Shown here: positions 2,891 through 47,206 of the stretch, one piece after another
How the letters are laid out: the number at the start of each line of letters is the position of its first letter
Position numbering within the stretch: the first letter of the stretch is position 1
From: a virus
Lineage: Duplodnaviria; Caudoviricetes
Length of the DNA: 64,000 bases
Direction: 5' to 3' (one strand)
Virus record (IMG/VR): IMGVR_UViG_3300025387_000009
Notes under the pieces: generated by a model
What the model was told of the DNA's origin: nothing
The model's database searches: none
What the model saw: the letters and a program-made list of their open reading frames with translations, nothing else
Made by a program: the position numbers and the translations under genes

Positions 2891-4225
2891 ATGGATAAAG
2901 ATTCTAAAAGTTTAGAAGCTCTGTATGAAAGTATTAAGCTAATTAAAGAAGACGAAGCAGGTAGACCATTTCCTTATTATGGTTCTAATGCTGCCGCTAC
3001 ATCAACTGCTATAATGGGAACAGAACCATTAACCCAAGCAGAGATAGAAGTACCAGAAAAGGCAGGACAAGAATCTGCTCCTGATGCAGAAGACGAAGAA
3101 GATAATAGTAGTCTTAGAAAATTATTAGATACAATTAAAATTACTATTAGTGATTACGAAAATAGTAAACAGATGAGATTTAACAGAGAATTAGAGGAAT
3201 CTGTTATTAATGAAATTAATTTGCAAGATGTTAGAAATGCGTATCAAGGCGCAAAAAATGTTGCAAATGTTGTTAAAACCGGAGTAAATGCTTTTAAATC
3301 AACCGCAACATCAAAAAATCCTCTTGGCAACTTAGCAGGTGCTACCGGAGATGTTGTCGATGCCTTTCTTAAAAAAGAAATAAAACAGCCTAAAATAATT
3401 GGAGACGAAGATAAGAAGACAAAGGAAATAATCATTCCGATAAATGGTAAACCAGTTGTTGCTGTTATAAACAAAACAGTCAATCCAAATATTAAGGGAA
3501 CCATAATAAATGTATTAGATAAAAACGAGAAATACGTTGTTAGATTAAATAATACAGGTACATTTGGTTTTGCGCAACTTAAAACCGAAGAAGAGAAGCC
3601 TAATAAAGTAAGCGCATTGGTAACATCGACAACGGGAGATGTTCATATTTTAAATAAAACGCTTTTAAATGGAGAAAATGACAAAAATTACACCGACACG
3701 CGTGATACGGCGTTGTTTGACATTAACAATCCAACAAGCATTAAATGGGCTTATCCTATAGAGAAATCCCCAAAATTACAAACTGGTAAACCACAAAAGG
3801 GAGATAAGATTAAAACTCAAAAGGGTTCAGTTTATACTTTCAATGGTGCAAAATGGGTTGATCAAAATAAAAAACCAGCCATTAATCAAGGAACTTTTCT
3901 TAATACGTGGAGAAAAATGCACGGATTATCAACCTTACAACAAGTTAAGAAAAAAACGGAACCCATTGATAATGATAAAGTTACATTAAAAAATGGTAGA
4001 GTCTATACTTTCAAAAATAAACAATGGGTTGATGAAAATAATAAACCAGCAGTAAATCCAATCGCAATTAATAATGCATGGAAACAAGAAAATAATATTC
4101 CCATTGACACTACACCAACGCCAACGGCAACACCGAAATTAAAAACTGGCGCAAGTAAAAGAATGGCAACGGCTAAGCCGACAACAGGTAAACCAAAAAT
4201 ACAGAGAAAAAAAATAAAAGCTTGA
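2891..4225 (+). CDS. Putative internal head protein (leader family) with two ~40-aa repeats
   Basis: MDKDSKSLEALYESI leader; repeats VYTFNGAKWVDQNKKPAIN / VYTFKNKQWVDENNKPAVN; TAAGTA upstream. Confidence 0.55.
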   Translation: MDKDSKSLEALYESIKLIKEDEAGRPFPYYGSNAAATSTAIMGTEPLTQAEIEVPEKAGQESAPDAEDEEDNSSLRKLLDTIKITISDYENSKQMRFNRELEESVINEINLQDVRNAYQGAKNVANVVKTGVNAFKSTATSKNPLGNLAGATGDVVDAFLKKEIKQPKIIGDEDKKTKEIIIPINGKPVVAVINKTVNPNIKGTIINVLDKNEKYVVRLNNTGTFGFAQLKTEEEKPNKVSALVTSTTGDVHILNKTLLNGENDKNYTDTRDTALFDINNPTSIKWAYPIEKSPKLQTGKPQKGDKIKTQKGSVYTFNGAKWVDQNKKPAINQGTFLNTWRKMHGLSTLQQVKKKTEPIDNDKVTLKNGRVYTFKNKQWVDENNKPAVNPIAINNAWKQENNIPIDTTPTPTATPKLKTGASKRMATAKPTTGKPKIQRKKIKA

Positions 4226-4249
4226 CATAATCAAGCAATCTGATAATAT
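4222..4249 (+). promoter_or_regulatory. Sigma70-type promoter, leaderless
   Basis: TTGACA-16-TAATAT, ATG 6 nt downstream. Confidence 0.55.
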
Positions 4250-4255
4250 ATTAAC

Positions 4256-4468
4256 ATGGCAAGAATAATAAACGAAATCGTAAAGATCCCATTCACTAAA
4301 CCAAATCTTTCTTTTGGTCAAAGAAAGAAAATTCTTCATGAAGGGATTCAGAAGCAAATCGACCTCTATAATCAAAGAGGTTGGATTACGATTGCTCACA
4401 AGGTAAACGTCGAAACGGCTGCTCATGCATCTGTTCAGTTTACCGTGCAGCAAATGATTAAAGTATAA
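4256..4468 (+). CDS. Hypothetical protein
   Basis: 70-aa ORF behind a promoter. Confidence 0.65.
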   Translation: MARIINEIVKIPFTKPNLSFGQRKKILHEGIQKQIDLYNQRGWITIAHKVNVETAAHASVQFTVQQMIKV

Positions 4469-4508
4469 TTCTAATAAAATACTCTTTTTAAGAGTAAATA
4501 TAGAATAT

Positions 4509-5684
4509 ATGATAAGCATGAATTTTGATAAAATTGTTTCTTCTCTTTTTACAGAGGCAGATACTAGAGTAAGAGAACTCACTCCCGAAGAGAAACTTAA
4601 ACTTGGTATTAAATATAAAAACGAAACAGTAGACAAAGAAAGATTTGATCATCCGCTTCCTGTATCTGATTTACTTCCATCTGGTGCTAAGAAGTATCAG
4701 GTTGGTGGATTAGGATCAACGGAAAATAGATCTGCCGCTGTCAGCAAAAAGCATGCAACCCAATCAGGCGAGTACGAAAACAAAAGATTAGATCAATTTA
4801 GAAGTCAAATTATTGTTTTAAACAATCAACTTGATAAGACAAACGATGAACAGGAAGTCTTTAATATCTCAAGATCATTAGTTACCATTCTCTCAAAATT
4901 AGCAAATCTTAAAAACGAGAAGACTGATATTCCATTAAACTATGATGACTACAAGCCAGTTAGTGATGTAATCAATCAAGTCCGTGATAAGATTAAAGCC
5001 AAGGTTCCTCTTTTTGCCAAAGATGCTGAAAAGAAAAAGATTGCTTTCGATCCAAGAAGATGGAATCAAATCGAAGCGAATCTTGATACCTTGGTTAGAC
5101 AGGATTTTGAAAACTTTGAAGAGCTTATTAAACAAGGATCTTACACGAGAATGCAATCCGCACCAGGTCAGCATTACTTTGCATTAGATCTTGCATCATC
5201 ATTCAATCCAAAAACTGGTGCAACCAACTGGATCATCTACACCAAGAAAGGCAAGGACAAAGAAGGAAATTATATTAAAGGTAATCTTCCTTTTATCAAG
5301 CAAACCGAAGTTGCAAATGTATGGCCCGACCCACTCCCAGACGTAAGAAAGGGATTAAGACAGCCTCCTACGCTTTGGGAAGGTGGTGTACCTCAGTATG
5401 GTAAGCCAGTTTCCAAAGAACAATTAGCCAGAAAGAGATTCAAACTTCAGGATGGGCAAATTGTAAGTGGTATTAGAATAGACGAATTCTCAAAAAATAT
5501 CGGAGATCAAATCATTTTTGATGTCATCAAGGCAAAATACTATGATGAGAAAACCGGAGAACAAACATTCGGTAACTTTACTATCGATTTAGATAAACTT
5601 ACTGTTGCTCCATATGGCTTGAAAAAGGAAACTTCTAAAGAGGGCGAAGTTCCAGAAGCACTCCATCAAAAAAGATCCGCCTAA
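4509..5684 (+). CDS. Hypothetical late protein, MNFDKIVSSLFTE leader
   Basis: 391 aa; TAAATA 8 nt upstream. Confidence 0.7.
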   Translation: MISMNFDKIVSSLFTEADTRVRELTPEEKLKLGIKYKNETVDKERFDHPLPVSDLLPSGAKKYQVGGLGSTENRSAAVSKKHATQSGEYENKRLDQFRSQIIVLNNQLDKTNDEQEVFNISRSLVTILSKLANLKNEKTDIPLNYDDYKPVSDVINQVRDKIKAKVPLFAKDAEKKKIAFDPRRWNQIEANLDTLVRQDFENFEELIKQGSYTRMQSAPGQHYFALDLASSFNPKTGATNWIIYTKKGKDKEGNYIKGNLPFIKQTEVANVWPDPLPDVRKGLRQPPTLWEGGVPQYGKPVSKEQLARKRFKLQDGQIVSGIRIDEFSKNIGDQIIFDVIKAKYYDEKTGEQTFGNFTIDLDKLTVAPYGLKKETSKEGEVPEALHQKRSA

Positions 5685-5733
5685 AAAATAAGCTTGCATT
5701 ATTTTTGATTTTGGTATATATTAAAAAAATACC

Positions 5734-5871
5734 ATGAGCCAAGAAAAAGATATTGACACAATGAGTGTCGATGAGTTAAAAGAATATATTGCAATCCTTT
5801 TGGATCGTATTGCCGATCTGGAAAAATCCAGAAATCATTACGAGAGGATCGCAAAAGCCCTATCAAAATAA
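5734..5871 (+). CDS. Small coiled-coil protein (45 aa)
   Basis: Hand-translated MSQEKDIDTM...; TAATG overlap with next gene. Confidence 0.55.
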   Translation: MSQEKDIDTMSVDELKEYIAILLDRIADLEKSRNHYERIAKALSK

Positions 5872-6515: not shown

Positions 6516-6546
6516 CACTTCAACAATAATCTGAGAACATATTCTC

Positions 6547-9976: not shown

Positions 9977-10300
9977 ATGGCAAATAAAGACCAAAAAAGT
10001 TTAGAATCAATCTACAGCAAAATTCTTCTTAGAGAGAATTTTGGAGCGACTCCAAACGAAACCGATGAGACTCCTGACGAAGCACCAACCTCATATAGTG
10101 TTTCCGGTGATCATGACAAGAAGGAAGCTCTCGCAGATATTTTCAGACAACATAATCTTCCTGCTTCCGAAGATGCTATTGATGCAATCTTAGCAGAGTT
10201 CGGTTTAGGTGGCGAAGCAGAGGAAGAGGCTAATTCCAGTGACTTTTTAAGTCCAATGGCTGATGCCGATGCTGCTAAAGATTACGACGAAGAACTCTAA
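9977..10300 (+). CDS. Acidic putative internal head protein (leader family)
   Basis: MANKDQKSLESIYSKILLRE leader; TAAATA upstream. Confidence 0.6.
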   Translation: MANKDQKSLESIYSKILLRENFGATPNETDETPDEAPTSYSVSGDHDKKEALADIFRQHNLPASEDAIDAILAEFGLGGEAEEEANSSDFLSPMADADAAKDYDEEL

Positions 10301-17500: not shown

Positions 17501-17749
17501 TATATAAAACGAAAAATATGAAATTTATGAATTTTTCAAAATCTTCGCCCTTGGGCGAAATTGTTTGAAAGATTTCATTTTACCCATTCTTTATATAAAA
17601 AATAAAAAAAAACCTTGACAAAGTATTTTACCCCTATGTGTCAAGATAAAAATAATCCTTGACACTTGGCATATGGGTCTGGTGTCAAGCACAAAGATTT
17701 TTGAAATTGTTCTTGAATGTTTGGGGAAAGATTGTATGGTAGCTCAACT

Positions 17750-19729
17750 ATGAAACTACTAGACACACCAAATCAAATCGAACAGATCGGAAACATCACG
17801 GGCACTTCGTCCTTCAAGATGAAGTCCTCTCGTAAAGCCTTCCAGATCCTCTCTGACCTTTACTCTGACAAGCCTCTTGCCATCGTCAGAGAGCTTGGTT
17901 GCAACGCCAATGATTCTATGGTTGCCTCTGGCAAGGTAGGTCAACCTTTCCACATTCACCTTCCCAACTCTCTTGAGCCTTGGATCACCATTCAGGATTT
18001 CGGAACAGGTATCTCGCACCAGAATATCTACGACATCTACTCCACTTACTTTGAAAGCACCAAGACCAATACCAATGAGCAGATCGGTTGCCTTGGTCTA
18101 GGTAGCAAGTCTCCCTTCTGTTATACGGACAACTTCTCTGTCACCTCCATCCATGATGGTGTCAAGAGAATCTACAATGCCTACTTCGCTCAAGATGGCA
18201 ACCCGACTATTGCCCTGATGAGTCAGGAGAACACCAAGGAAGAAAATGGTGTGGCAGTCCAGATCCCTGTCAAGGAGAAAGATTTCTGTGACTTCATCAA
18301 GGCAGTCCAGAAGGCATTTCGATTCTTCGATGTCAAGCCAACTACCTCTGGTGGGGTGTGCCATTGGTCAGAGGAGAAGCCTACCTTCTCTGGTGAGGAT
18401 TGGATGTTCATGGATTCCTCTAATCAATGGGAGGCATTTGCCATCATGGGAGGAGTCACCTATCCTATCGACCACTACAAGGTTGCCGACAAGTATAACA
18501 ACATCGTTCGCAAAGGTGTGGTTCTGAAGTTCGCTATGGGAGAACTCGACTTTGCTCCCTCTCGTGAACACCTGTCCTATGATGATGCCACTATCAAGGC
18601 AATCAATGACAAGCTGGAAAAAGTCTTGACAGAGATCAAGACCAAGGCAAAAGAGCAGATAGAAAATAAGGATAACATCCTTGACTCCATCCATGCTTTG
18701 CTCTCCTACACCGAGAGGTTCTCCTACTACGGGTCAAGCAATTTTGAACTCAAGAATGTCCAGTTCAAAGGTAAGGACATCACCGAGCCTTACAAGGTTG
18801 TCAAGGATATTCTCAAGACATCTGTGCAGTCCTTCACTCGCTACTCTTACAGGAAGCAGGTCAGCACCAGTTCATCCTTCTCCTTCGACAAGAAGTTCAC
18901 ATGGTATTACGATGATGGATGCAAGAATCCTATCGCTCGTGTCAAGACTCTTGTTCGTGAGACTAATGACACTTATGCCATCCTCTTCACTCAAGAGCAG
19001 AGGGATGACATGATGGATGCAGGATTCCCTGATAACTTCCTCCCTGCCTCCTCCCTGCCTTCCCCTACTGCCAAGAGGAAGCTCTCTGGTGGCACTATCG
19101 TAGTCAAGGCTAAAGAGGACATCACCTGCTATCAGATTGGTCACCCCTACAATGTCTCTTGGGAGTCAAGGACAATCGAACCGACTGAAACAAATCTTCC
19201 CAAGTATTATATCCTGAAGGGGAAGAATTGGGAGTTGAATGTCAAGCTCAATCATCTTCGCATCATCAGCGACAAGGATCGCCTTCGCTCCTATTGTCAA
19301 GCCTTTAATATCTCGCTCAATGATATTGTGCTTGCCAATGACAAGGAGGCAAAGAAGCTCAAGGCAAGGGGTGTCAAGGATTTTGTTGAGGAGTTCAACA
19401 AGAATCACGACCTATCTTGGGTTGACATGAGTGAAGTGGACATCCTCCAATCCTACTCGACTCACAGGTTGCATGACATCGTGAATCGTCAAGAGTTTTC
19501 TGATCTCGCCAACGACAATCCTATCAAGGAGATGCTTGTCAAGCTCCAAAGTTTCAAGCAGAAGTATAGCAAGATCACCGAAATCCTTGGCTACATGGAT
19601 AACAGGGACAGCAATAAAGTTTTCAAGATGGAAGATAAAGTTCTTGACTTCCTCCTCTCCTCTCTGCTAGGAGAGTGGGGTGAGGATCAGAAGATGTATC
19701 TGCTCCTTGCAAAGAAACTGGAAAAATAG
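17750..19729 (+). CDS. rIIA: RIIA protein (N-terminal GHKL/HATPase domain)
   Basis: LYSDKPLAIVRELGCNANDS, IQDFGTG, GCLGLGSKSPF; directly upstream of rIIB. Confidence 0.9.
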   Translation: MKLLDTPNQIEQIGNITGTSSFKMKSSRKAFQILSDLYSDKPLAIVRELGCNANDSMVASGKVGQPFHIHLPNSLEPWITIQDFGTGISHQNIYDIYSTYFESTKTNTNEQIGCLGLGSKSPFCYTDNFSVTSIHDGVKRIYNAYFAQDGNPTIALMSQENTKEENGVAVQIPVKEKDFCDFIKAVQKAFRFFDVKPTTSGGVCHWSEEKPTFSGEDWMFMDSSNQWEAFAIMGGVTYPIDHYKVADKYNNIVRKGVVLKFAMGELDFAPSREHLSYDDATIKAINDKLEKVLTEIKTKAKEQIENKDNILDSIHALLSYTERFSYYGSSNFELKNVQFKGKDITEPYKVVKDILKTSVQSFTRYSYRKQVSTSSSFSFDKKFTWYYDDGCKNPIARVKTLVRETNDTYAILFTQEQRDDMMDAGFPDNFLPASSLPSPTAKRKLSGGTIVVKAKEDITCYQIGHPYNVSWESRTIEPTETNLPKYYILKGKNWELNVKLNHLRIISDKDRLRSYCQAFNISLNDIVLANDKEAKKLKARGVKDFVEEFNKNHDLSWVDMSEVDILQSYSTHRLHDIVNRQEFSDLANDNPIKEMLVKLQSFKQKYSKITEILGYMDNRDSNKVFKMEDKVLDFLLSSLLGEWGEDQKMYLLLAKKLEK

Positions 19730-19767
19730 TATTGACAACACAACCCAAACAAAGTAGTATCGTAATC

Positions 19768-20862
19768 ATGAACAACACCAACAATGCAGTCACCATTACA
19801 GGACAGGGAAAGATCACTGCCTGTATCAACGGATCAATCTACACGATTGACAACACGCACCCCAACTACTTCAAGGCACTTGAGGCAGTCAAGGCACAGG
19901 ATTGGAACGCCTTCCTCGACCATGTAGACATTTCTCGTAAGGTCAAGGATTTTGTTCTCAACTCTGATGTCCAGATTGTAGATGGCATCATCGTCTACAA
20001 GGGTGAGCCTATCCACAATACTCTCACCAAGAGGGTGATTAGTTTCATGCAACAGGACTTGCCCTTCAAGCCTCTGCTGAACTTCCTCTATAACCTGATG
20101 GAGAATCCCTCCTATCGTGCAGTCAATGAACTCTACGATTTTCTGGATGTGGGTGAACTCCCAATCACAGAGGATGGTCACTTCCTCGCCTTCAAGAATG
20201 TTCGTGCAGACTATAAGGACATTCATAGTGGGACATTTGACAACTCCATTGGCAAGGTGTGTGAGATGCCTCGCTACAAGGTGGACGAGGACAAGGATCG
20301 CACTTGCTCAAGTGGATTGCACTTCTGCTCGATTAACTATCTGCCTCACTTTGCAGATCACAACGGAGGTCACACCATGATTGTCAAGATCAATCCCAAG
20401 GATGTGGTGTCAATCCCTGCTGACTACAACAACACCAAGGGTCGTTGCTGTAAGTATGAAGTGATCGGTGAATACACCGAGGATTGGAGGATCAAGCTCA
20501 ATCGTGGAGAGAATGGATTCGACAACGATCTCTACTCTTCTGATGGAGGAGATTACGAGGACGAGGATGAGAACGAGTATTGTGCCAACTGCCAAACCAT
20601 CCTTGATAATTGGGATGAGAACTCCGAGATGCTCTGTAACTCCTGCTACGATGACAAATACTCTGGATGCTACGGAGGAGGATGTGCTGGCAAGACTACA
20701 CTCACCAACGAGGATCAGGTAGGCAACGATGGCAACGATGGTTGCTGTGGTGGTCAATGCGGTTGTGAGAACAACAACCAGTATGGTGTCAAGCCTAATG
20801 GTCATCTCTTCCACAATGTCAGAGATGCCCTTGGTAAGTTTGTCAAGAAGAATGTAGGCTAG
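19768..20862 (+). CDS. rIIB: RIIB protein with Cys-rich acidic extension
   Basis: LPITEDGHFLAFKNVR...RTCSSGLH...VKINPKDVVSIPADY..KGRCCKYEV. Confidence 0.9.
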   Translation: MNNTNNAVTITGQGKITACINGSIYTIDNTHPNYFKALEAVKAQDWNAFLDHVDISRKVKDFVLNSDVQIVDGIIVYKGEPIHNTLTKRVISFMQQDLPFKPLLNFLYNLMENPSYRAVNELYDFLDVGELPITEDGHFLAFKNVRADYKDIHSGTFDNSIGKVCEMPRYKVDEDKDRTCSSGLHFCSINYLPHFADHNGGHTMIVKINPKDVVSIPADYNNTKGRCCKYEVIGEYTEDWRIKLNRGENGFDNDLYSSDGGDYEDEDENEYCANCQTILDNWDENSEMLCNSCYDDKYSGCYGGGCAGKTTLTNEDQVGNDGNDGCCGGQCGCENNNQYGVKPNGHLFHNVRDALGKFVKKNVG

Positions 20863-32575: not shown

Positions 32576-33025
32576 ATGCGAGATCGTGATACACTTTTAC
32601 TTCAAGAAGCCTATAGTCTTATTTGCGAGGAGGGATTAGAAGCAAGAACTGGTCATATTGGGTTTTCTGGAAAAGTTTGGGTGTATAAGAACCTAAACTT
32701 GTCAGATAAACTTGGCTATCCTATATTCTCCATTATGGATGTGGCAACAAATAAGGTTATTGGTCATGAAAGAAATCTCTTGCTTAAGGATTGCATTTTA
32801 AAGGTTCGTCAAGGGGGAATGGAAAAGGTTCGTGAACAGAAAAGAAAAAATGTTCATGCAGGGGTTATTGGGTTTTTATCCAACGAAGAACCTCGTGTTT
32901 TACCAATTAGTATTACCTATAATCCCTACAAATATAACTCATTTGTAAACCGAGCAAATGAGCAACCCATTTATAATGCAAAGCTTGTATCCATTATCGA
33001 TGGAAAGCTTACGGCGCAAATTTAG
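32576..33025 (+). CDS. Leader-family protein with conserved phage domain
   Basis: MRDRDTLLLQEAYSLI; KVWVYKNL..KRKNVHAGVIG motif. Confidence 0.7.
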   Translation: MRDRDTLLLQEAYSLICEEGLEARTGHIGFSGKVWVYKNLNLSDKLGYPIFSIMDVATNKVIGHERNLLLKDCILKVRQGGMEKVREQKRKNVHAGVIGFLSNEEPRVLPISITYNPYKYNSFVNRANEQPIYNAKLVSIIDGKLTAQI

Positions 33026-33045
33026 CAAAAAAATTTTTTTAAGGG

Positions 33046-33051
33046 TAAATA
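33046..33051 (+). promoter_or_regulatory. Late promoter TAAATA
   Basis: 7 nt before ATG 33059. Confidence 0.55.
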
Positions 33052-33058
33052 TAATATC

Positions 33059-34192
33059 ATGAGAGATAAAGACGCATTAATACTTGAGAGTTTGTACGAA
33101 GAAGTTTCTATTTTGGAAGCATTCGACACATTGGGAGCAAAGGCAGACGCAATTGCCCCAGAAGAACTAGTTGCCTATATTAACAGGGTTAACGAAAAAT
33201 CAAAACTCAAGGCAAGCGAAAAGAAAGGTAAGGATAAGGATTATTTCCACATGCCTCATATCCATTCCGCCATTGCAAAGAAGGTAATGATCCAAACTCC
33301 AGATGGCGAAAAAGTTGATCTTGATGAATTTAAGAAAATCTTAATGACCCGTCCAAAGGAGCTTTTACGCCAAAACGAGAAGATGCAAAAGAGTGGTACA
33401 GACACCACAGTTTTCTTTAACACAACTCTTCCTGCCTTAAAGGGTATGGTTGTTGACGAAAGCACAGGAGAATTTAAAATCATTACAACCTGTCCATCCG
33501 CTGGTGCTTGTCAATTAGTATGTTACGCAAAACACGGATCATATGTCATGTATCCAGAGGTTTCCATGTTCCAGAATAAAACCCTTAACTATCTCTTCAA
33601 TGATGCAGAGGGTTATGAAAACCAAATGGTAGCAGAAATTAAATTAGCTGCTATTAAAAACAGAGGCAAGAAAGTTCAGGTTCGCTGGAATGATTCCGGT
33701 GACTTACTCTCCCCTAAGTTCTTTGATATTGTAATGAAAATTGTAAATGCAACGCCTGATGCAGATCACTATATCTACACCAAGGAAGTTGCATTAATTA
33801 AATCAATTCCAAATCCTCCACATAACGTAATCTTTAACTTCTCTTACGGGGCAAGAAAAGAACAGGAGAAATTAATTGATCCTCAGAAAGATAAGGTTTC
33901 CTATATCGTTAATATTAAAGACCCAACAAAGGAGCCTTCCCTTTATCCGATTTCAAAATTCAAATACATTGAATTAAAAAACAAGAAGTGGGTTTATACC
34001 AATCCAGATGCAGTAAAGCAACTCATTGCACAGAGATATAAGATTGATCCAAAGAGTGTTTTAACAATTGATGAATTGAAACATACCCCTGAAGGTCAGA
34101 ACGGGCAGTATAACGTGATCGTATTGCCTGGCGAATCCGACCTCTCCGCCTCACGCAGAGACGTTCGTGGTACGTATTTAATCATCCACTAA
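33059..34192 (+). CDS. GP88-like Cys-cluster (radical-SAM-like) protein with leader
   Basis: TCPSAGACQLVCYA..VRWNDSGD..YIYTKE. Confidence 0.75.
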   Translation: MRDKDALILESLYEEVSILEAFDTLGAKADAIAPEELVAYINRVNEKSKLKASEKKGKDKDYFHMPHIHSAIAKKVMIQTPDGEKVDLDEFKKILMTRPKELLRQNEKMQKSGTDTTVFFNTTLPALKGMVVDESTGEFKIITTCPSAGACQLVCYAKHGSYVMYPEVSMFQNKTLNYLFNDAEGYENQMVAEIKLAAIKNRGKKVQVRWNDSGDLLSPKFFDIVMKIVNATPDADHYIYTKEVALIKSIPNPPHNVIFNFSYGARKEQEKLIDPQKDKVSYIVNIKDPTKEPSLYPISKFKYIELKNKKWVYTNPDAVKQLIAQRYKIDPKSVLTIDELKHTPEGQNGQYNVIVLPGESDLSASRRDVRGTYLIIH

Positions 34193-34273
34193 ATCGTTAT
34201 TTATCCTTCAGCATTTCCCATTTCATCGGCATGAATGGGTGATTTAGAATCGATAAGTATTGACATAACCACT

Positions 34274-34504
34274 ATGTCAAAGGATTTCAACAAAAGAATG
34301 AAAACAAAGGAATTTGCTCAAAAGGCAAAGAAGAAACAATCCTTTGTAGTCAAAGAAGTAAAGGTAGAAGAAATTTTCGATGAAACCGGAGAGGTAAACG
34401 AATCTACGATTCTAAAAATTTCTTTTGAGGGTATCCTTTTACATTTAAGTATAGGAGCAGCATATAGACTTTTTAGAGATTTACGTGAGATTTTGGATTC
34501 CTAA
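34274..34504 (+). CDS. Hypothetical protein
   Basis: ORF track, start uncertain. Confidence 0.5.
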   Translation: MSKDFNKRMKTKEFAQKAKKKQSFVVKEVKVEEIFDETGEVNESTILKISFEGILLHLSIGAAYRLFRDLREILDS

Positions 34505-34508
34505 AGTG

Positions 34509-34514
34509 TAAGTA
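34509..34514 (+). promoter_or_regulatory. Late promoter TAAGTA
   Basis: 6 nt before ATG 34521. Confidence 0.55.
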
Positions 34515-34520
34515 ATATTA

Positions 34521-35492
34521 ATGAACAAGAAAGACTATCTCATTTTAGAAGAAGCTTATAATAAAGTTTTAGTTAACGAGGCATATGATACAAGTAGTTT
34601 GCCTCACGATCAGCAAGCCACAATCCATAAATTAGAAGAGCACGGATTTAAAATCGTTGGCTATAAAACCCAGAGTGGTCAGAAAGTTATGGAGCTTAGA
34701 AAGATGGGTGTTAGTGCACACGTTGATTCAGAAGGATTTATAAATGACGAAGAGAACGCTGATGATTTCTTACTTAAGTTCAAACCATCAAGACCAGAAG
34801 AAAAGCTTCGTGGATTAACAAATAGAGAAGTCGAAAAGGATATCGCTGCTCAGAGAATGCAAAGAGGAGCAGAAGGTTATGCAGAAAGAAAGCACGAGCA
34901 TGGTGCTCTTCATGGTGACGTAGCATATAACAATTACAAAGAATCAACTTCATTGGAAGATGTTTATGCAAAGCTTTTAAGTGAATCTCAGGACATTGAT
35001 CCAAGAAACACAGATCATAAACACCCATTCAATCGTGTTGATAATGATCCTCATTCTGGTACACAGAAAACAGGTTCATACAAGCTTCCTGTTGTAGAGG
35101 CAGACGAAGAGGAAGATCACGTTGAAAAAACCGAAAAGGAAAAGGTTGAAGACGTTAAGGATAAGGAAGAAGAGGAGTCTTCCAAATATAAAAAATCGGA
35201 GGAAGGCGAACATGGTGATAATGAAAAGCTAGAAGGTAAAGAAGAAATTTCAGTTGAGGAAGAAGATTTCGATCTTTTATCCGCTGCTCTTGACATCATC
35301 AAGGAAGCGAAGAAGAAAGCCGTTTCCGGAAAAAAGAATATAAACCCTTGGGCTGTTGAAAAAGCACTTGAAAAGAAAACAGGTCATCATTACGGCAAAG
35401 AGAAAAAGGAAAGAATCGTAAAGGGTATAAAAAAGGGTGCAGAAAAATACGGTAAGAAGATTACCTCCAAACCAGTTAAAAAATCCAAGTAA
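34521..35492 (+). CDS. Highly charged putative internal head protein (leader family)
   Basis: MNKKDYLILEEAYNKVLVNE; internal STSLEDVYAKLLSE; acidic tract then Lys-rich end. Confidence 0.65.
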   Translation: MNKKDYLILEEAYNKVLVNEAYDTSSLPHDQQATIHKLEEHGFKIVGYKTQSGQKVMELRKMGVSAHVDSEGFINDEENADDFLLKFKPSRPEEKLRGLTNREVEKDIAAQRMQRGAEGYAERKHEHGALHGDVAYNNYKESTSLEDVYAKLLSESQDIDPRNTDHKHPFNRVDNDPHSGTQKTGSYKLPVVEADEEEDHVEKTEKEKVEDVKDKEEEESSKYKKSEEGEHGDNEKLEGKEEISVEEEDFDLLSAALDIIKEAKKKAVSGKKNINPWAVEKALEKKTGHHYGKEKKERIVKGIKKGAEKYGKKITSKPVKKSK

Positions 35493-35493
35493 T

Positions 35494-36111
35494 ATGTTCT
35501 CAAATTCAAAAGATCAAGTTAGCCTAGAAGAAGCTTATAGTAGCGTTAAAAGAAACGTTATTAACGAAGATTTTTCTCACATTGCAAATGAAATTGTTTC
35601 TGCAATTAGAAGTACAGGTCATATGTCACCACAGATACAAGGGTTGGTAACATTGGCATCGTTCTATATACCAGGCATGCTTGGAGCCGCCACCGTAGCT
35701 GCAATTCAAAAAGGATTTGATATGGCATCCAAGGGTGGAGTTCAACACCTTTTAACAAAAATTAAATCCCTTTTAAAACACGAACCAAAGGAAGAAATCG
35801 TACACGATATCGAATCAAGAACATCAAAGGAAATTGCACAGGCTTATATTAGCAATCCTACCAAAGATAATTTGGAAGCATTTCTTAATGATTTGAAAAA
35901 GAGTCTAGATGGTGCAGTTGAGCGTCATGGTCATCGTCAATCAAAGAAAGTTGCCAATGCTATTTCTGATAATCCTGTGCATCAAGAATCTGCAAATTCA
36001 ACTTTAAGATATTTGGGTGGAAGAGGCAGTGCAAAATATAATCCAGATCAAGGACTTATCCAAGAATCACACAAGCCTCGTAGAGGTTCTACGCTAGATT
36101 ATTTAAAATAG
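35494..36111 (+). CDS. Leader-family protein
   Basis: MFSNSKDQVSLEEAYSSV..INE. Confidence 0.65.
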   Translation: MFSNSKDQVSLEEAYSSVKRNVINEDFSHIANEIVSAIRSTGHMSPQIQGLVTLASFYIPGMLGAATVAAIQKGFDMASKGGVQHLLTKIKSLLKHEPKEEIVHDIESRTSKEIAQAYISNPTKDNLEAFLNDLKKSLDGAVERHGHRQSKKVANAISDNPVHQESANSTLRYLGGRGSAKYNPDQGLIQESHKPRRGSTLDYLK

Positions 36112-37141: not shown

Positions 37142-37236
37142 GGTGGGTTAGTGTAATTGGAAGCACGATATAGTTTATACCTATAACTTCCCTAGATGAG
37201 GGATTAGCATGGGTTCGATTCCCATACCCACTTCCA
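37142..37236 (+). tRNA. Atypical tRNA with UAU anticodon, long variable arm, U73
   Basis: GGTGGGT/ACCCACT acceptor, TATAG-TTTATAC-CTATA arm, 23-nt V region, GGTTCGATTCC, CCA. Confidence 0.75.
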
Positions 37237-39364: not shown

Positions 39365-41536
39365 ATGAACAATATTAACCTTACATTGGTAAGTAATTTC
39401 ACTGCAAACCAGCAGAATCCTAATGTCGCTTATAGCAATTCATGGATTCAACAAGATGGTGCGCCCTTTCCTCTTTTTGCCCAAGCATCTTATATTACTA
39501 ATTTAGATGCATTAAAAATTTCTTTAAGTTCTACTGGTTTATCTATTGGTAATGTCGGTATATTTGATCCGATAAGTGGGGCAGTGGCAGATGTTGTTAA
39601 TGTTGGTGTAGGAGCAAATGCCCTTCGTGTATTAACTCAAAATTTTGGTTCGAATGTAGATAGTGTTGCAATTGGTGATTCAAGTGGAAATTTAGTTGGT
39701 ACAACTAGAGGCGGTTTAAATGTTTATCAAGTAAATGCTAATTCGGCTATTGATATTGCTCAATGTAATGTTACTCTACCTGTAAGTGGTTCTGTTACTG
39801 TTTTAAACCCTGTAAACTCGTTAAGTGCTTATATTACCAATCCTCAAATTGAAATTACAAATGATGCAGGTAATCCAATTCCGGTAACAGGTTCCTTAAG
39901 TGCTACTATTTTAAACTCAGTAACTTCGGTTTCGATTGCTAATAACAATGTAAACTCTCCTTTATATTTCCAATATTCTAGTAATCTTCAATTAGATCCA
40001 GCGGGTAAACTTCGTGTTGCTCAACCTGCTGCTTCTTGGTGGCATCAGTCAACAGTTGATAAAGATGGTGATTTTAGACTTACAGAACAATTTACTGGTC
40101 TCAGTGCTCAAAGTATTTTTATACAAGATTTAGGTAGTACATTATTAACTAGTGGTTTGAGTTCTACTGGTTATGTAATCAGACAATCCAAAAGACATTT
40201 TAAATTCACACCTGGCATTGGTACTCAAGTATACGGAACCCTAAACTTTTGTGGATCTGATCCCTATACCGTAAAAAGATTTGGACAGTTTAATTATGCC
40301 TCTGGTATATTCTTTGAGCTATCTGCCAATAATTCATTTAATGTTGTTGTTCGTAGAAGAGAAATGGATGGAACTATCGTTGAGGATAGAACAAATAGTG
40401 CTAATTTTAATGGTGATAAATTAGATGGAACTGGTTCTTCTGGACTTAATTTCTTTACATCCGTAAGTGCTACAGGATTAACATATAGTTCAATTTCTAC
40501 TGTTGCGTTTCCAAATCAAACTTTATCGGCTTATGATGTAACATATAGCACATCATCAAGTTTAATAGGCGTATTTAATCAATCATCTACTGTTACCGTT
40601 TCTGGAATTAATCCTTCTGGTTATGATGGCGTGGCATGGGTTTCTAGTATTACACCAAGTACAATTACATTAACATATCCATTTAATCCAGGGTCTTTTG
40701 TTTCTGGTAATACAATTACCTTAACACAAACTCCTTTCCACGAGGAGTGGACATGGTGGTTTGATTATTTTGGTGGTAGAACTTCAAGAGTTAGATTTGT
40801 TCTTGTGGGTCCAACTGGATCATTTATAATTCATACCTATGGTGTTGCTGGTCGTTATGGTCAACAATTTGTTTCGGAAACAGCTTTACCAGTAAGAACC
40901 GAAATATTTAATCAAGCAACATTGTCTTATCTTCCTTATGTATTGGCTTCATCGAAAGCAATAGATACGGAAGCAGAGGTGACAATGAATCCCTTTTTTG
41001 CAAATTATAATACAGTAAGTCAAGTTGTATGGCCCTCCACCACATCAACGGCAGAATATGCTATTATTGGTCTTGGATTAAGACAGGGAGAGCCTTATAA
41101 TAAGGTTGATATTCAACTTCAAGGATTATCAATTACTGATTTAGGATGGCAGAATGTTAATGCTGGTAGTGGTAATTCGACACCTGCAAATTATTCTTGG
41201 CGATTAATGTATAATCCTGTTTTATCTGGACAAAATACTTCTGCTAAACAATCCATATCAGGATCAATTAATATGGGCAAAGCATCAAGAGTTTGGGACT
41301 ACAATACAGGAGTTGTTTATCTCAGTGGTGGATATCAAATATTAGGTGGTTGGGGTTCTGCAACCACCGTACAAGATATTCAAACTGCTCTTAACTTTTT
41401 AAATATTGGAGCAAACGTAGATTATACACAACCAGATTCTGTTGTGTTACTCGTCCAACAAAACAATTATAGTTTAAACCCTCCATACAAACCTTTAGTT
41501 TGTGCTGCTACTCTTAATTGGCAAGAACAATTTTAA
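39365..41536 (+). CDS. Large beta-rich virion-type protein, paralog of 50179..51963
   Basis: 723 aa Ser/Thr/Asn/Gly-rich; RQSKRHFKFTPG, KRFGQF..GIFFE. Confidence 0.65.
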   Translation: MNNINLTLVSNFTANQQNPNVAYSNSWIQQDGAPFPLFAQASYITNLDALKISLSSTGLSIGNVGIFDPISGAVADVVNVGVGANALRVLTQNFGSNVDSVAIGDSSGNLVGTTRGGLNVYQVNANSAIDIAQCNVTLPVSGSVTVLNPVNSLSAYITNPQIEITNDAGNPIPVTGSLSATILNSVTSVSIANNNVNSPLYFQYSSNLQLDPAGKLRVAQPAASWWHQSTVDKDGDFRLTEQFTGLSAQSIFIQDLGSTLLTSGLSSTGYVIRQSKRHFKFTPGIGTQVYGTLNFCGSDPYTVKRFGQFNYASGIFFELSANNSFNVVVRRREMDGTIVEDRTNSANFNGDKLDGTGSSGLNFFTSVSATGLTYSSISTVAFPNQTLSAYDVTYSTSSSLIGVFNQSSTVTVSGINPSGYDGVAWVSSITPSTITLTYPFNPGSFVSGNTITLTQTPFHEEWTWWFDYFGGRTSRVRFVLVGPTGSFIIHTYGVAGRYGQQFVSETALPVRTEIFNQATLSYLPYVLASSKAIDTEAEVTMNPFFANYNTVSQVVWPSTTSTAEYAIIGLGLRQGEPYNKVDIQLQGLSITDLGWQNVNAGSGNSTPANYSWRLMYNPVLSGQNTSAKQSISGSINMGKASRVWDYNTGVVYLSGGYQILGGWGSATTVQDIQTALNFLNIGANVDYTQPDSVVLLVQQNNYSLNPPYKPLVCAATLNWQEQF

Positions 41537-44941: not shown

Positions 44942-44942
44942 T

Positions 44943-45110
44943 ATGAAATTTGATGCTTTAGTTGCTTCTATATTAGAAGAAAAAAAAGATGCTTGTTACT
45001 ATAAAGTAAAGAGCAGATATAAGGTGTGGCCCTCCGCCTACGCATCCGGTGCATTGGTTAAATGTCGTAAAAAGGGTGCTAAAAATTGGGGTAAATCTAA
45101 AAAGAAATGA
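44943..45110 (+). CDS. Small basic leader protein (DUF5872-like)
   Basis: Hand-translated MKFDALVASILEE-KKDACYYKVKSRYKVWPSAYASGALVKCRKKG. Confidence 0.7.
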   Translation: MKFDALVASILEEKKDACYYKVKSRYKVWPSAYASGALVKCRKKGAKNWGKSKKK

Positions 45111-45364
45111 AATTTGATTCACTTGTAGCAACTTTATTAGAAGGTTTCGAAAAGGAAAAACGTGAAGGACTTCACGGGTGGTTTTCACGCAGAGGTGCAG
45201 GTGGTCAAAAAGGTTGGATAGATTGTAAAACTGGTAAGGTTTGCGGTAGACAAAAAGGCGAAAAAAGAAAAGGTTATCCAGCTTGTCGCCCTACAAAAGC
45301 AATGTGTTCAGCAAGTAAAAGAAAAAAGAAAGGTCATAAAGCAATCAGATGGAAAAAGAAATAA
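45107..45364 (+). CDS. Small basic leader protein (DUF5872-like)
   Basis: MKFDSLVATLLE..GLHGWF..WIDC..CGR..YPACRP. Confidence 0.7.
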   Translation: MKFDSLVATLLEGFEKEKREGLHGWFSRRGAGGQKGWIDCKTGKVCGRQKGEKRKGYPACRPTKAMCSASKRKKKGHKAIRWKKK

Positions 45365-45500
45365 ATCTTTATAAAATAATAAGAAGTGTTATTACTGAAG
45401 TCAACTGTTGGAAAGGTTATCACAAAAAAGGAACTAAAAACTTTTTGGTAAAATAGTAAATAACTGTGTTAAAAACAAAAAGAAAAAGAAGTAATATTTG

Positions 45501-45677: not shown

Positions 45678-45719
45678 CATCAAAGGGTTGGTGTGGTAAG
45701 TTATTAATATAAATTTATT

Positions 45720-45794
45720 GCCTCTGTAGCTCAGTGATAGAGCTTTCGCCTTGTAAGCGAAGGGTCGTCGGTTTAATCCCGACCAGAGGCTCCA
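45720..45794 (+). tRNA. trnT: tRNA-Thr(UGU)
   Basis: TTCGC-CTTGTAA-GCGAA, CCA. Confidence 0.9.
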
Positions 45795-45797
45795 TAT

Positions 45798-45872
45798 ACG
45801 TTGGTGGCAGACAAGAAATGCAGCAGTCTCCAAAACTGCCTTATGTGGGAGCGTTACCCACCCAACGTGCCA
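45798..45872 (+). tRNA. trnW: tRNA-Trp(CCA), T-loop AGCGTTA
   Basis: ACGTTGG/CCAACGT, GCAGT-CTCCAAA-ACTGC, G73, CCA. Confidence 0.8.
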
Positions 45873-45878
45873 ATTTAT

Positions 45879-45951
45879 CGCAGGGTGGACAAGTGGTTAA
45901 GTCATCTGGCTCATAACCAGAGGATCGTGGGTTCAAATCCCACCCCTGCCA
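45879..45951 (+). tRNA. trnfM: Initiator-type tRNA-Met(CAU), CCA not encoded
   Basis: C1:C72 mismatch, TCTGG-CTCATAA-CCAGA, GTTCAAATC. Confidence 0.85.
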
Positions 45952-46097
45952 ATTGTAAGTATATATGTGCTTGATCCACTAGAAGCCGCTATGACAGGAG
46001 TATCTGTTTTGATATTTTTTTTGGGATATTTTATTTTAAGTATCATCATCTTTATTGTTGACTTTGTGCGAAAACATCTCTAAGATATATAAATAGA

Positions 46098-46172
46098 GTC
46101 GCCATCATCTAACGGTTAGGATACACGGTTTTCATCCGTGGAATAGGGGTTCGATTCCCCTTGGCGATGCCA
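46098..46172 (+). tRNA. trnE: tRNA-Glu(UUC)
   Basis: CACGG-TTTTCAT-CCGTG, CCA. Confidence 0.92.
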
Positions 46173-46180
46173 GTTTTTTT

Positions 46181-46254
46181 GGGCGTATGATGTAACGGTA
46201 GCCTGTTAGTCTTCCAAACTTAATGAGAGGGTTCGATTCCCTCTACGCCCTCCA
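46181..46254 (+). tRNA. trnG: tRNA-Gly(UCC)
   Basis: Loop CTTCCAA, U73, CCA. Confidence 0.9.
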
Positions 46255-46268
46255 AGTGTAAGTATAAG

Positions 46269-46853
46269 ATGAAAGATAGGGATAGCCTAATATTAGAATT
46301 TTTATACGAGAAGGTATCTTCTCCGATTGTTGTAGTCGGAGGAATTCATGGAGATGAAGTAGCTGGAACTATTGCTGCCGATAGATTTAAAGGTAAAGAA
46401 GGAATCTACGTTATATCCCATGTCAATAAGACAGGAAAAAGAAGAGATGGTTCAATTGATTTAAATAGACACTTTGACCAAAAGGATTCGGTAGAAAAAG
46501 AAGATAGAATTTTAAATAAAATTTTATCTTTAAAACCAAGAGTCGTAATAGCACTACATGAAGATTGTGATGGAAGTGGAATCTATGCTTATTGTAATCC
46601 AGAGTTTAAAGAAAAGCTAAAGGATATATTGGCATCAATTCATGCACCGAAAGCAAAGAGTGCATGTGGAGATAAAACAGAGGATGGTGTTATTTCTTTC
46701 GGTCACTTGCCAACAAAGGGAACATTAGAAAGAGCAATGAGAAAAAGAGGTATTCCTTATTGCACACTAGAAACCCCTATGGATTGGGATAAGAAAGAAA
46801 GAGCAGATTATTTAGAAACCATTGCAAATAAAATTATTTCTGCTTATAGCTGA
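46269..46853 (+). CDS. M14-type zinc carboxypeptidase/deacylase with leader
   Basis: GGIHGDE, DLNRHF, ALHED, TLETP. Confidence 0.8.
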   Translation: MKDRDSLILEFLYEKVSSPIVVVGGIHGDEVAGTIAADRFKGKEGIYVISHVNKTGKRRDGSIDLNRHFDQKDSVEKEDRILNKILSLKPRVVIALHEDCDGSGIYAYCNPEFKEKLKDILASIHAPKAKSACGDKTEDGVISFGHLPTKGTLERAMRKRGIPYCTLETPMDWDKKERADYLETIANKIISAYS

Positions 46854-47206
46854 TTTAAAAATTCTTTAGGGTGAGTATTAAATTTCTTCAAATACTTGTG
46901 GAGTTTTTCGCTGTTGAGTAAACCATGTAAAAAATTGTGATTTATATCATGATCATTCTTATAATAGATTAAGAATTTCTTGATCTTGTGTAAAAGGTTA
47001 TTCGGATCTTTTTTATGGTCATCCGATAACAGATCAATCTCCCAGATATCATCTCCGATATCAATATAGATAACATGTGGCTTCTCATCTGGTACTTCTC
47101 CGCTTTTTTCTTCTTCACCAATATCATCTTCTTTAATATCAGCACCAGAGTAATGATTCATCTTTTCATAAATCATCTGTAATTTTTTTTCGTCGTTATC
47201 TTTCAC
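46844..47206 (-). CDS. Leader-family protein
   Basis: MKDNDEKKLQMIYEKM; TAAATA 6 nt upstream. Confidence 0.6.
   Translation of the reverse strand: MKDNDEKKLQMIYEKMNHYSGADIKEDDIGEEEKSGEVPDEKPHVIYIDIGDDIWEIDLLSDDHKKDPNNLLHKIKKFLIYYKNDHDINHNFLHGLLNSEKLHKYLKKFNTHPKEFLNQL

What the first reader, a model, noticed from the sequence alone, without database searches (positions are those of the whole stretch)
2891..47206. Shared N-terminal leader on at least 11 unrelated late proteins: candidate capsid-targeting/injection system
Seen: eight ORFs start with D-x3-L-[EQ]-x2-Y-x2-[IVM], six of them followed by a Glu (2891, 9977, 32576, 33059, 34521, 35494, 46269, 47206 minus). Three more start M-[KN]-F-D-x-[LI]-V-x2-[LI]..E (4509, 44943, 45107). 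An internal copy occurs in 34521. The bodies are unrelated (GP88-like Fe-S protein, M14 peptidase, acidic scaffolds, small basic proteins), and most sit just behind a TAA(G/A)TA late promoter. Known: T4 internal proteins carry a ~10-aa capsid-targeting sequence (MKTYQEFIAE) removed by gp21 after Glu, and IPI* blocks the GmrSD nuclease. Inference: a transferable tag loads diverse enzymes into the head for delivery with the DNA, so these are anti-defence or takeover candidates.
Basis: partly seen in the sequence, partly recalled or inferred. Interest (0 to 1): 0.8.

Follow-up and report, generated by a model that had tools for sequence, protein, structure and literature searches.

The report
Swappable head-loading tags on phage proteins
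Eleven otherwise unrelated late proteins of this uncultured freshwater T4-like phage begin with one of two short, interchangeable tags that end in the cutting motif of the phage's head protease, so they are most likely loaded into the capsid and trimmed there, as phage T4 does with its internal proteins.

Summary
Eight ORFs start with leader A and three with leader B.

- **Leader A:** about 20 residues, with D5, L9 and Y13 invariant. The wider family consensus is MKSKDQILLEEAYsKILLKE.
- **Leader B:** M-K-F-D-x-L-V-x-x-[IL]-L-E.
- **Placement:** the leader A pattern occurs 10 times in six frames, and 8 of these lie 3-6 residues after a start codon (p about 3e-18).
- **Level of selection:** the constraint is on the protein, because the invariant residues use several synonymous codons.
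- **Gene class:** the tagged genes sit behind late-promoter-like motifs. None lies in the rIIA/rIIB early block.

Leader A heads at least 33 unrelated protein families in metagenomes. There are about 9 copies in each of two complete 210-kb relatives.

Two conserved bodies carry leader A, leader B, other leaders or none in different phages. These are a radical-SAM-fold GP88-like enzyme and a small zinc-peptidase-like protein. In the GP88-like family the leader nearly always ends in hydrophobic-x-Glu directly before the conserved body.

The phage has a T4-type head protease. Its scaffold, small core protein and protease begin with similar motifs.

Best reading (about 0.7): these are capsid-targeting propeptides of the T4 kind, in a new sequence form and on a wider cargo set. 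Packaging and cleavage are not shown, and an anti-defence role was not tested. This scan has reported comparable leader sets on other phage DNA.

The parts
2891..4225 (+). Leader A ORF, 444 aa. It starts MDKDSKSLEALYESIKLIKE|D. The body has no known family and a Lys-rich C-terminus.
   Evidence: TAAGTA motif upstream. Hydrophobic-x-E ends at residue 20.
9977..10300 (+). Leader A ORF, 107 aa. It starts MANKDQKSLESIYSKILLRE|N. The body is very acidic (pI 4.1).
   Evidence: TAAATA motif upstream.
32576..33025 (+). Leader A ORF, 149 aa. It starts MRDRDTLLLQEAYSLICEE. The body is a Phage_L5_gp82 domain that begins at residue 32.
   Evidence: (PF25735, E 6e-27).
33059..34192 (+). Leader A ORF, 377 aa. 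It starts MRDKDALILESLYEEVSILE|AFD. The body is GP88-like with a radical-SAM fold and a C-x5-C-x3-C motif.
   Evidence: Orthologues carry other leaders with a conserved x-E junction.
34521..35492 (+). Leader A ORF, 323 aa. It starts MNKKDYLILEEAYNKVLVNE|A. It is a fusion of two leader-bearing modules.
34950..34985 (+). Internal relic leader SLEDVYAKLLSE (residues 144-155 of the 34521 ORF) at the fusion junction.
   Evidence: It aligns with the N-terminal leader of P0031, whose body is 68% identical.
35494..36111 (+). Leader A ORF, 205 aa. It starts MFSNSKDQVSLEEAYSSVKRNVINE|D. It directly follows 34521, with a one-base gap after the stop codon.
46269..46853 (+). Leader A ORF, 194 aa. It starts MKDRDSLILEFLYE|KVSS. 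The body is a small AstE_AspA/M14-like zinc peptidase that starts at residue 18 (SPIVVVGGIHGDE).
   Evidence: Homologues carry A, B, other or no leader.
46844..47206 (-). Leader A ORF, 120 aa, GTG start. It starts VKDNDEKKLQMIYEKMNHYSGADIKE|D.
   Evidence: TAAATA motif at the right distance from the GTG.
4509..5684 (+). Leader B ORF, 391 aa. It starts MISMNFDKIVSSLFTE|A.
44943..45110 (+). Leader B ORF, 55 aa. It starts MKFDALVASILE|E. The body is very basic (pI 10.0) and contains Cys.
45107..45364 (+). Leader B ORF, 85 aa. It starts MKFDSLVATLLE|GFEKE. The body is very basic (pI 10.4). Its orthologue in the relative G001 has a different leader before the same GFEKE junction.

Best explanation
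The two leaders are capsid-targeting propeptides of the phage T4 kind.

**Proposed mechanism**
1. The tagged proteins are made late in infection.
2. The N-terminal tag docks them onto the scaffolding core of the assembling prohead.
3. The T4-type S77 head protease then cuts after the Glu of a hydrophobic-x-Glu motif at the end of the tag.
4. The mature protein stays in the DNA-filled head and enters the host cell with the DNA.

**Form of the tags**
- Leader A is about 20 residues with the family consensus MKSKDQILLEEAYsKILLKE. It reads as an 11-12-residue extension followed by a T4-CTS-like core: an aromatic residue, then two hydrophobic residues 3 and 4 positions later, then Glu.
- Leader B (MKFDxLVxxLLE) is the short form. 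It resembles the start of the phage's own scaffold protein (MKNFKAILE).

**Evolution.** The tags act as exchangeable modules. Evolution puts them on, swaps them between, and removes them from unrelated proteins.

**Shown here:** the tags, their N-terminal placement, their portability, the conserved Glu at the leader/body junction, the late-gene association and the T4-type head module.

**Inferred:** docking to the core, cleavage, packaging and ejection.
For: 1. **The tag is real and acts at the protein level.**
   - Placement and score statistics.
   - Invariant D, L and Y use 2, 5 and 2 different codons.
2. **The tag is portable.**
   - A 30-residue profile finds 52 cluster representatives at E <= 1e-3 among 1.84 billion proteins. 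48 of these start at residue 1-2.
   - 41 bodies fall into 33 families, with GP88, Zeta_toxin and other domains.
   - In 48 IMG/VR loci, 92 of 94 hits have a Met 2-6 residues upstream.
   - The profile finds 9 hits in each of two complete relatives. G006 was not used to build the profile.
3. **Leaders are swapped on orthologous bodies.**
   - Among 98 GP88-like homologues there are leader A, leader B, MxTFKKYLEQLxE, MISFLSFFTE and others.
   - 50 of 57 with an anchored junction have hydrophobic-x-E directly before the conserved body start (A/K)FDxxMG.
   - The peptidase family shows leaders A, B, LTFEEYYN-type or none.
   - The 45107 family keeps E|GFEKE after different leaders.
4. **The phage has the required head machinery.**
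   - The window's own phage has an S77 protease, a T4_CASP scaffold and Gp23. It was reached by walking through identical proteins.
   - The scaffold starts MKNFKAILE, the 79-aa core protein has ISKFITQLCE, the protease has VYNLLVE, and gp23 has WCIEE|AS.
   - Both leader-A genomes that are at least 90% complete have the protease.
5. **The tagged genes look late.**
   - Late-promoter-like motif: odds ratio 16.7, p 8e-5 in the window; odds ratio 12, p 2e-4 in G001.
   - 0 of 51 genes in the rIIA/rIIB early block carry a leader, against 11 of 76 outside it (p 0.003).
6. **The structure model fits a detachable tag.** In the AlphaFold model of 33059 the leader is a low-confidence helix (residues 4-15). 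The E20 site lies in an unstructured linker before a confident body.
7. **Internal leader copies sit at fusion junctions**.
8. **Published T4 precedent.**
   - Propeptides are 10-19 residues. Residues 4 and 7 target, and residues 8 and 10 direct cleavage.
   - The CTS carries foreign proteins into heads (PMC9026906).
   - T-even internal proteins are diverse and share only the CTS (PMC3012670).
   - gp21 cuts after Glu, for example at ITE-6 and LTE-619 in Alt (PMC5694885).
Against: - There is no virion proteome, N-terminal sequence or cleavage assay for this uncultured phage or any relative.
- Leader A has no significant sequence similarity to the T4 CTS MKTYQEFIAE. The resemblance is only at the level of pattern.
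- Hydrophobic-x-Glu is a short motif and common in acidic helices.
- In 46269 and in many leader-B peptidases no Glu lies at the exact leader/body junction.
- The head module was tied to the window through a chain of identical proteins on other contigs, not on one molecule.
Confidence: 0.7

Rival explanations
1. The leader is a recognition sequence for a modifying enzyme, as in RiPP-like systems. The radical-SAM-fold GP88-like protein encoded among the tagged genes would bind the shared leader and modify the attached proteins.
For: - The GP88-like protein has a radical-SAM fold. Its structural matches include RiPP maturases bound to leader peptides.
- It heads clusters of tagged genes both in the window (32576-36111) and in relative L012.
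- An earlier scan report on phage RB43 tied a shared N-terminal tag to a radical-SAM enzyme.
Against: - The enzyme itself carries the leader. It swaps leader type along with its neighbours while its body stays 58-70% identical.
- Tagged genes are scattered over more than 44 kb.
- The complete genome G006 has about 9 leader-A genes but only a short, leaderless, different GP88 member.
- This reading does not explain the conserved Glu exactly at the junction.
Confidence: 0.06
2. The leader is an amphipathic docking helix for some other late process. Candidates are attachment to another virion part such as the tail or baseplate, a shared chaperone, or the membrane. It would not be a tag for the head interior.
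For: - The leader is predicted to be helical and amphipathic.
- The tagged genes are late.
- Another scan report read a shared N-terminal peptide in a giant E. coli phage as a plug for adhesins.
Against: - The bodies are small charged proteins and soluble enzymes, not fibre or adhesin folds.
- The junction Glu and the matching motifs at the start of the scaffold, core protein and protease point to the head core.
- Leaderless versions of the peptidase exist.
Confidence: 0.12
3. The shared start is a nucleic-acid feature with no role as a protein tag. It could be a translation-initiation or recombination cassette joined to the late promoter.
For: - The late motif sits only a few bases before the start codon, with no obvious ribosome-binding site.
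- The first codons are A-rich.
Against: - Invariant residues are encoded by several synonymous codons, including five Leu codons.
- Conservation runs over 20 codons at the amino-acid level across hundreds of diverged genes.
- Several tagged genes lack their own promoter motif.
Confidence: 0.03
4. The proteins are a divergent paralogue family that has kept an ancestral N-terminal segment. No module transfer would be involved.
For: - Tagged genes often lie in tandem.
- Some bodies are related to each other.
Against: - The bodies belong to different Pfam families that occur elsewhere without the leader.
- Single body families carry alternative, unrelated leaders or none.
Confidence: 0.03

Closest known systems
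Capsid targeting sequence (CTS) of phage T4 internal proteins IPI, IPII, IPIII and Alt, removed by prohead protease gp21 (PMC9026906, PMC3012670, PMC5694885; the sequence MKTYQEFIAE is given in PMC8442874)
   Same: - An N-terminal propeptide of 10-20 residues on otherwise unrelated proteins.
- It ends in hydrophobic-x-Glu.
- The genome encodes an S77 (gp21-type) protease, a gp22-type scaffold and gp23.
- The genes are late.
- Much of the cargo is small and highly charged.
- The tag is the only part conserved between cargo proteins.
   Different: - Leader A is a distinct 20-residue sequence with D5, L9 and Y13 invariant. It has no significant similarity to the T4 CTS.
- At least two leader types coexist in one genome, with about 11 tagged genes in 64 kb. 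T4 has about four such proteins.
- The cargo includes enzymes: a radical-SAM fold and a zinc peptidase here, and a zeta-toxin-like kinase in relatives.
- Fused two-module proteins keep an internal leader.
- Nothing has been shown experimentally.
Variable internal-protein loci of T-even phages with a conserved CTS (reviewed in PMC3012670 and PMC9026906)
   Same: The cargo genes turn over quickly while the leader is conserved. Only 1 of the 8 leader-A proteins of the window has a clear orthologue in relative G001.
   Different: - Here the turnover is seen across an uncultured freshwater clade of about 210-kb phages.
- It includes exchange of the leader itself on a conserved body.
Propeptides of ejection and inner-body proteins in giant phages phiKZ, 201phi2-1 and SPN3US, cut by S80 proteases at (A/S/G)-x-Glu (PMC5694885, PMC10052503)
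   Same: - Many head-internal proteins are processed after Glu.
- Paralogues share identical N-terminal propeptides.
- Some propeptides contain several cleavage sites.
   Different: - The protease family differs: S77 here.
- The residue two before the cut is hydrophobic here, not small.
- The leaders here are short and stereotyped.
Shared N-terminal tags linked to radical-SAM/SPASM enzymes in phages (earlier scan report e1-127136; Kaur et al. 2020, PMC7159879, as named in that report and not read here)
   Same: One short N-terminal sequence on many unrelated phage proteins, with a radical-SAM-fold gene nearby.
   Different: - The radical-SAM-fold protein here carries the tag itself and swaps it.
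- The tag ends in a protease motif at a conserved junction.

Membership tests
T4-type capsid targeting propeptide (CTS) system | A short leader at the extreme N-terminus of the precursor protein | tested here: met
   - D5, L9 and Y13 lie at fixed distances from Met1.
- 48 of 52 profile hits start at residue 1-2.
- 92 of 94 IMG/VR hits have a Met 2-6 residues upstream.
T4-type capsid targeting propeptide (CTS) system | The leader ends in the gp21 cleavage motif (hydrophobic-x-Glu, cut after Glu) | tested here: met
   This is met at the sequence level only.
- [LIVM]-x-E ends at residue 18-21 in 46 of 52 leaders.
- 50 of 57 GP88-like orthologues have hydrophobic-x-E directly before the conserved body.
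- Cleavage itself was not tested.
T4-type capsid targeting propeptide (CTS) system | The genome encodes a gp21-type (Peptidase_S77) prohead protease, a gp22-type scaffolding core and gp23 | tested here: met
   - L096 carries PF03420, PF25623 (T4_CASP) and PF07068. It was reached from the window through identical proteins.
- The relatives G001, G006 and G008 also have the protease.
T4-type capsid targeting propeptide (CTS) system | The leader is portable, with the same leader on unrelated cargo | tested here: met
   - 33 body families among 41 bodies.
- Leader swaps on the GP88-like, peptidase and 45107 families.
T4-type capsid targeting propeptide (CTS) system | Sequence likeness to the T4 CTS, with an aromatic residue at position 4, a hydrophobic residue at 7 and 8, and Glu at 10 | tested here: inconclusive
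   The match is at pattern level only.
- Leader A residues 13-20 (Y-x-x-[IV]-L-L-x-E), leader B and the scaffold start MKNFKAILE all fit the pattern.
- There is no statistically significant alignment to MKTYQEFIAE.
T4-type capsid targeting propeptide (CTS) system | Late expression together with the head genes | tested here: met
   This rests on promoter-motif association only. The same motif precedes the protease, core protein and scaffold genes. No transcript data were examined.
T4-type capsid targeting propeptide (CTS) system | Physical incorporation into the prohead core, removal of the leader, and presence of the mature protein in virions | not testable with these tools
RiPP-like leader recognised by a radical-SAM maturase | Obligate co-occurrence of tagged substrates with one maturase that does not itself carry the tag | tested here: not met
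   - The GP88-like protein carries the tag itself.
- G006 has about 9 tagged genes but only a short, leaderless, different GP88 member.

The most novel reading that the evidence does not exclude
Leader A is a two-part address, made of an 11-12-residue extension and a CTS-like core. It defines a second packaging class beside the short leader B in the same head. This would allow different copy number, position or ejection order.

The clade would use this system to pre-load working enzymes:
- a spore-photoproduct-lyase-like radical-SAM enzyme that could repair UV-damaged DNA on entry
- a zinc peptidase
- a zeta-toxin-like kinase

It would also load fused precursors that the head protease splits inside the capsid at internal leaders.
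Probability: 0.2. Interest if true: 0.7.

Novelty: new variant of a known kind. Interest (0 to 1): 0.55.

Why it matters
If the reading is right, it would matter in four ways.

- **Cargo catalogue from sequence.** A widespread group of about 210-kb freshwater T4-like phages would carry a varied, fast-changing set of proteins and enzymes in the head. A 20-residue tag would mark them. That would give a sequence-only way to list the proteins a phage delivers with its DNA, which are usually the first actors in takeover and counter-defence.
- **Natural mapping of a cleavage site.** Alignment of orthologues with swapped leaders marks the predicted cut site to the residue. This is a natural experiment on what a T4-type targeting sequence needs.
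- **Engineering.** It offers alternative tags for loading foreign proteins into T4-type capsids.
- **Open question in T4 biology.** The scaffold, core protein and protease start with related motifs. This bears on how the CTS finds the core, which is still unsettled.

Tried and rejected
- **Whole genome.** None is held for the window.
- **Known phage DNA.** Megablast of 32-37 kb against known phages found nothing. Protein searches found only distant cyanophage and Streptomyces-phage relatives.
- **Exact DNA search.** A search of IMG/VR for the window's own sequence found nothing.
- **Metagenome records.** Records behind ENA and Logan loci cannot be searched as genomes. The head module was therefore reached by walking through identical proteins, at a cost of 8 look-ups. 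One was wasted by asking for a single place.
- **Complex prediction.** No binding test was made.
- **De novo clustering in G001.** Clustering of N-termini at a score of 28 chained into noise and was not used.
- **GP88-like and peptidase bodies.** PDB sequence searches found nothing useful for either. Foldseek against PDB, run on the GP88-like model only, found nothing useful. Only the exhaustive structural search showed the radical-SAM fold.
- **Protein atlas.** The call failed on a missing argument and was not repeated.
- **Earlier scan notes.** A search with a leader-A protein found nothing relevant.
- **gp23 cleavage site.** The alignment of the G001 gp23 propeptide to T4 gp23 is too weak near the cleavage site to place the cut by homology. 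WCLEE|AG in G001 and WCIEE|AS in the window's phage are offered as likely sites only.

Full report
**What the window is**

The window comes from a large, AT-rich T4-like phage (32-36% G+C outside one block).
- It carries rIIA and rIIB (17717-20862), a nicotinamide phosphoribosyltransferase, two paralogous virion proteins, 17 tRNA genes and a tmRNA.
- No close relative exists among sequenced phages.
- The same phage recurs in several freshwater metagenome assemblies.
- IMG/VR holds relatives of about 210 kb. G001 is 99% complete, and G006 is complete with terminal repeats.

**The observation**

- The leader A pattern occurs ten times in the six-frame translation. Eight of these lie 3-6 residues after a start codon, which has a chance probability of about 3e-18.
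- A position matrix separates the eight (29-36 bits) from everything else in the window (12.7 bits or less). The reversed translation gives no hit.
- An unsupervised comparison of all N-termini finds the same cluster. At a score of 35 or more there are 15 N-terminal pairs and none for an internal control segment.
- The three leader B ORFs are the only strong matrix hits for that motif, and all are N-terminal.
- The invariant Asp, Leu and Tyr are encoded by two, five and two different codons. Selection therefore acts on the peptide, not on the DNA or RNA.

**How far the leader reaches**

A 30-residue profile of 17 leaders was searched against 1.84 billion protein representatives.
- It found 52 at E <= 1e-3, and 48 of them match from residue 1 or 2.
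- Their consensus is MKSKDQILLEEAYsKILLKE, with D5, L9 and Y13 invariant.
- A hydrophobic-x-Glu ends at residue 18-21 in 46 of 52.
- The 41 bodies long enough to compare fall into 33 families. A few have known domains: GP88, Zeta_toxin/AAA_33, HTH_17 and an RHS repeat.

A back-translated pattern found 48 IMG/VR loci.
- In them, 92 of 94 matrix hits have a Met 2-6 residues upstream.
- The tagged genes often stand in tandem.

The profile finds nine copies in G001 and nine in G006, which was not used to build it. It finds none in three 60-kb fragments of a more distant lineage.

Only one of the window's eight leader-A proteins has a clear orthologue in G001. The cargo therefore turns over quickly while the tag stays.

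**The tags are exchangeable modules**

This is the strongest comparative result.
- **GP88-like family.** Among 98 homologues of the 33059 protein, the conserved body begins (A/K)-F-D-x-x-M-G. Before it stand leader A (30 cases), leader-B-like sequences, a 13-residue MxTFKKYLEQLxE, a 10-residue MISFLSFFTE, or others. In 50 of 57 sequences where the junction could be anchored, the three residues before the body are hydrophobic-x-Glu. Inspection shows several of the other seven were mis-anchored.
- **Neighbouring genes in a relative.** In L012 the orthologue (58% identical) starts MTKKFNKFFDSIISSF. Six genes that start MT-x-x-FD-x-[FY]-V-x-x-IL-E follow it.
- **Peptidase family.** In the family of 46269 the body starts x-P-I-V-I-V-G-G-I-H-G-D-E. 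It is preceded by leader A, by leader B (most cases), by an LTFEEYYN-type leader, or by nothing but Met. In G006 this peptidase carries leader B.
- **45107 family.** The small basic protein keeps E|GFEKE after different leaders in the window and in G001.
- **Fusions.** The internal copy in 34521 (residues 144-155) aligns with the N-terminal leader of a relative that lacks the first 137 residues. The window protein is therefore a fusion of two tagged genes. A 513-residue metagenomic protein has the same build, with an internal leader directly before a zeta-toxin-like kinase domain.

**Link to the head**

I walked upstream of the window through contigs that encode identical proteins and reached the head module.
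- It holds gp15, gp13, a Peptidase_S77 protease, a 79-residue protein, a T4_CASP scaffold and Gp23.
- The protein starts match what first-stage notes on this genome quoted. This supports the view that the contig belongs to the same phage.
- The scaffold begins MKNFKAILE, the 79-residue protein MEIRKLISKFITQLCE and the protease MSNVYNLLVE. gp23 has WCIEE|AS near residue 60.
- These are the same aromatic / hydrophobic-hydrophobic / Glu pattern as leader B, as residues 13-20 of leader A, and as the T4 CTS MKTYQEFIAE (sequence as in PMC8442874).
- In T4, residues 4 and 7 of the CTS direct targeting and residues 8 and 10 direct cleavage. Propeptides are 10-19 residues, and the CTS carries foreign proteins into heads (PMC9026906). 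gp21 cuts after Glu (PMC5694885).
- Both leader-A genomes that are at least 90% complete have the S77 protease.

**Timing**

- The motif TAA[AG]TA lies at -22 to -10 before 7 of 11 tagged genes, against 11 of 116 others (p 8e-5). Three more tagged genes directly follow a late gene.
- In G001 the motif also precedes the scaffold, core-protein, neck and tail genes. There its association with leaders has an odds ratio of 12.
- None of the 51 genes in the G+C-richer block 10.3-32.4 kb, which holds rIIA and rIIB, carries a leader. Outside it, 11 of 76 do (p 0.003).

**Structure**

- The AlphaFold model of 33059 is confident (mean pLDDT 89).
- The leader is a short helix (residues 4-15) of low confidence. 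It is joined by an unstructured stretch (16-28, holding E20) to the body.
- The body has a radical-SAM fold. The best match is spore photoproduct lyase (Z 8.0, 226 residues aligned), followed by many radical-SAM enzymes at Z 5-6.
- Three invariant Cys form C-x5-C-x3-C.
- A Z of 8 is at the level where the tool warns of common arrangements. The fold assignment is likely, but the kinship to the lyase is only a lead.

**Conclusion and limits**

The data fit a T4-type capsid-targeting and processing system with new leader sequences and a broad, shifting cargo.
- They do not show packaging, cleavage or ejection, and they say little about what the cargo does.
- The rival that the radical-SAM-fold protein modifies the leaders is unlikely. 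That protein bears and swaps the leader itself. In addition, G006 has the tagged genes but only a different, leaderless GP88 member.
- The concept is established for T4 and T-even phages (PMC3012670, PMC9026906). This scan has reported similar leader sets in other large phages.
- I therefore rate this a new variant of a known kind. Its value lies in the orthologue-with-swapped-leader evidence, which marks the predicted cut site.

Noticed in passing
window 33059-34192: The GP88-like protein (Pfam PF17338, function unknown) folds as a radical-SAM enzyme with invariant C-x5-C-x3-C. Its closest solved structure is spore photoproduct lyase (Z 8.0). A head-packaged DNA-repair enzyme is conceivable but untested.
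   Followed up: partly
window 46269-46853: This is a minimal (194 aa) AstE_AspA/M14-like zinc-peptidase-like protein with the motifs HGDE and ALHED. The family is widespread in related phages and nearly always leader-tagged, with leader B in most cases. Its substrate is unknown, and cell-wall peptide is one possibility.
   Followed up: partly
P0006 (metagenomic protein, 513 aa): This two-module precursor runs leader A, a body shared with P0008 and P0045, an internal leader A at 285-305, then a Zeta_toxin/AAA_33 kinase domain. It looks like a small polyprotein that the head protease would split.
   Followed up: partly
window 53825-54274 and 21439-54358: ARAGORN reports a tmRNA gene (450 nt, tag peptide ending LMAA) and 17 tRNA genes. 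One is a 95-nt tRNA with anticodon UAU and a long extra arm at 37142-37236.
   Followed up: no
window 10300-32400: This block has 39-47% G+C, against 32-36% elsewhere. It holds rIIA, rIIB, a DUF932 protein and many small ORFs, and has no leader-tagged genes. It is probably the early region.
   Followed up: partly
window 39365-41536 and 50179-51963: Two paralogous virion structural proteins (phrog_1645) share the N-terminal motif NPNVA(Y/W)SNSW. Each lies behind a TAAGTA motif and before a gene for a membrane-like protein.
   Followed up: no
window 34521-35492 C-terminus; G001 39505-39714; L041: Several leader-tagged small proteins end in a Lys-rich tail containing the motif NPWAV(E/C). This may be a recurrent basic DNA-binding module among the cargo.
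   Followed up: no
L096:2188-2634: A TnsA-like endonuclease gene (148 aa, PF08722) sits between gp13 and the head protease gene in the window's phage. It may be a homing-endonuclease-type insert in the head module.
   Followed up: no
L005, L007, L089, L092 (about 8-38 kb upstream of the window): This is a run of very large virion or fibre genes (944-2033 aa) with LamG, RCC1/WD40-like and PKD domains, lying between the baseplate genes (gp25, gp6) and the window.
   Followed up: no
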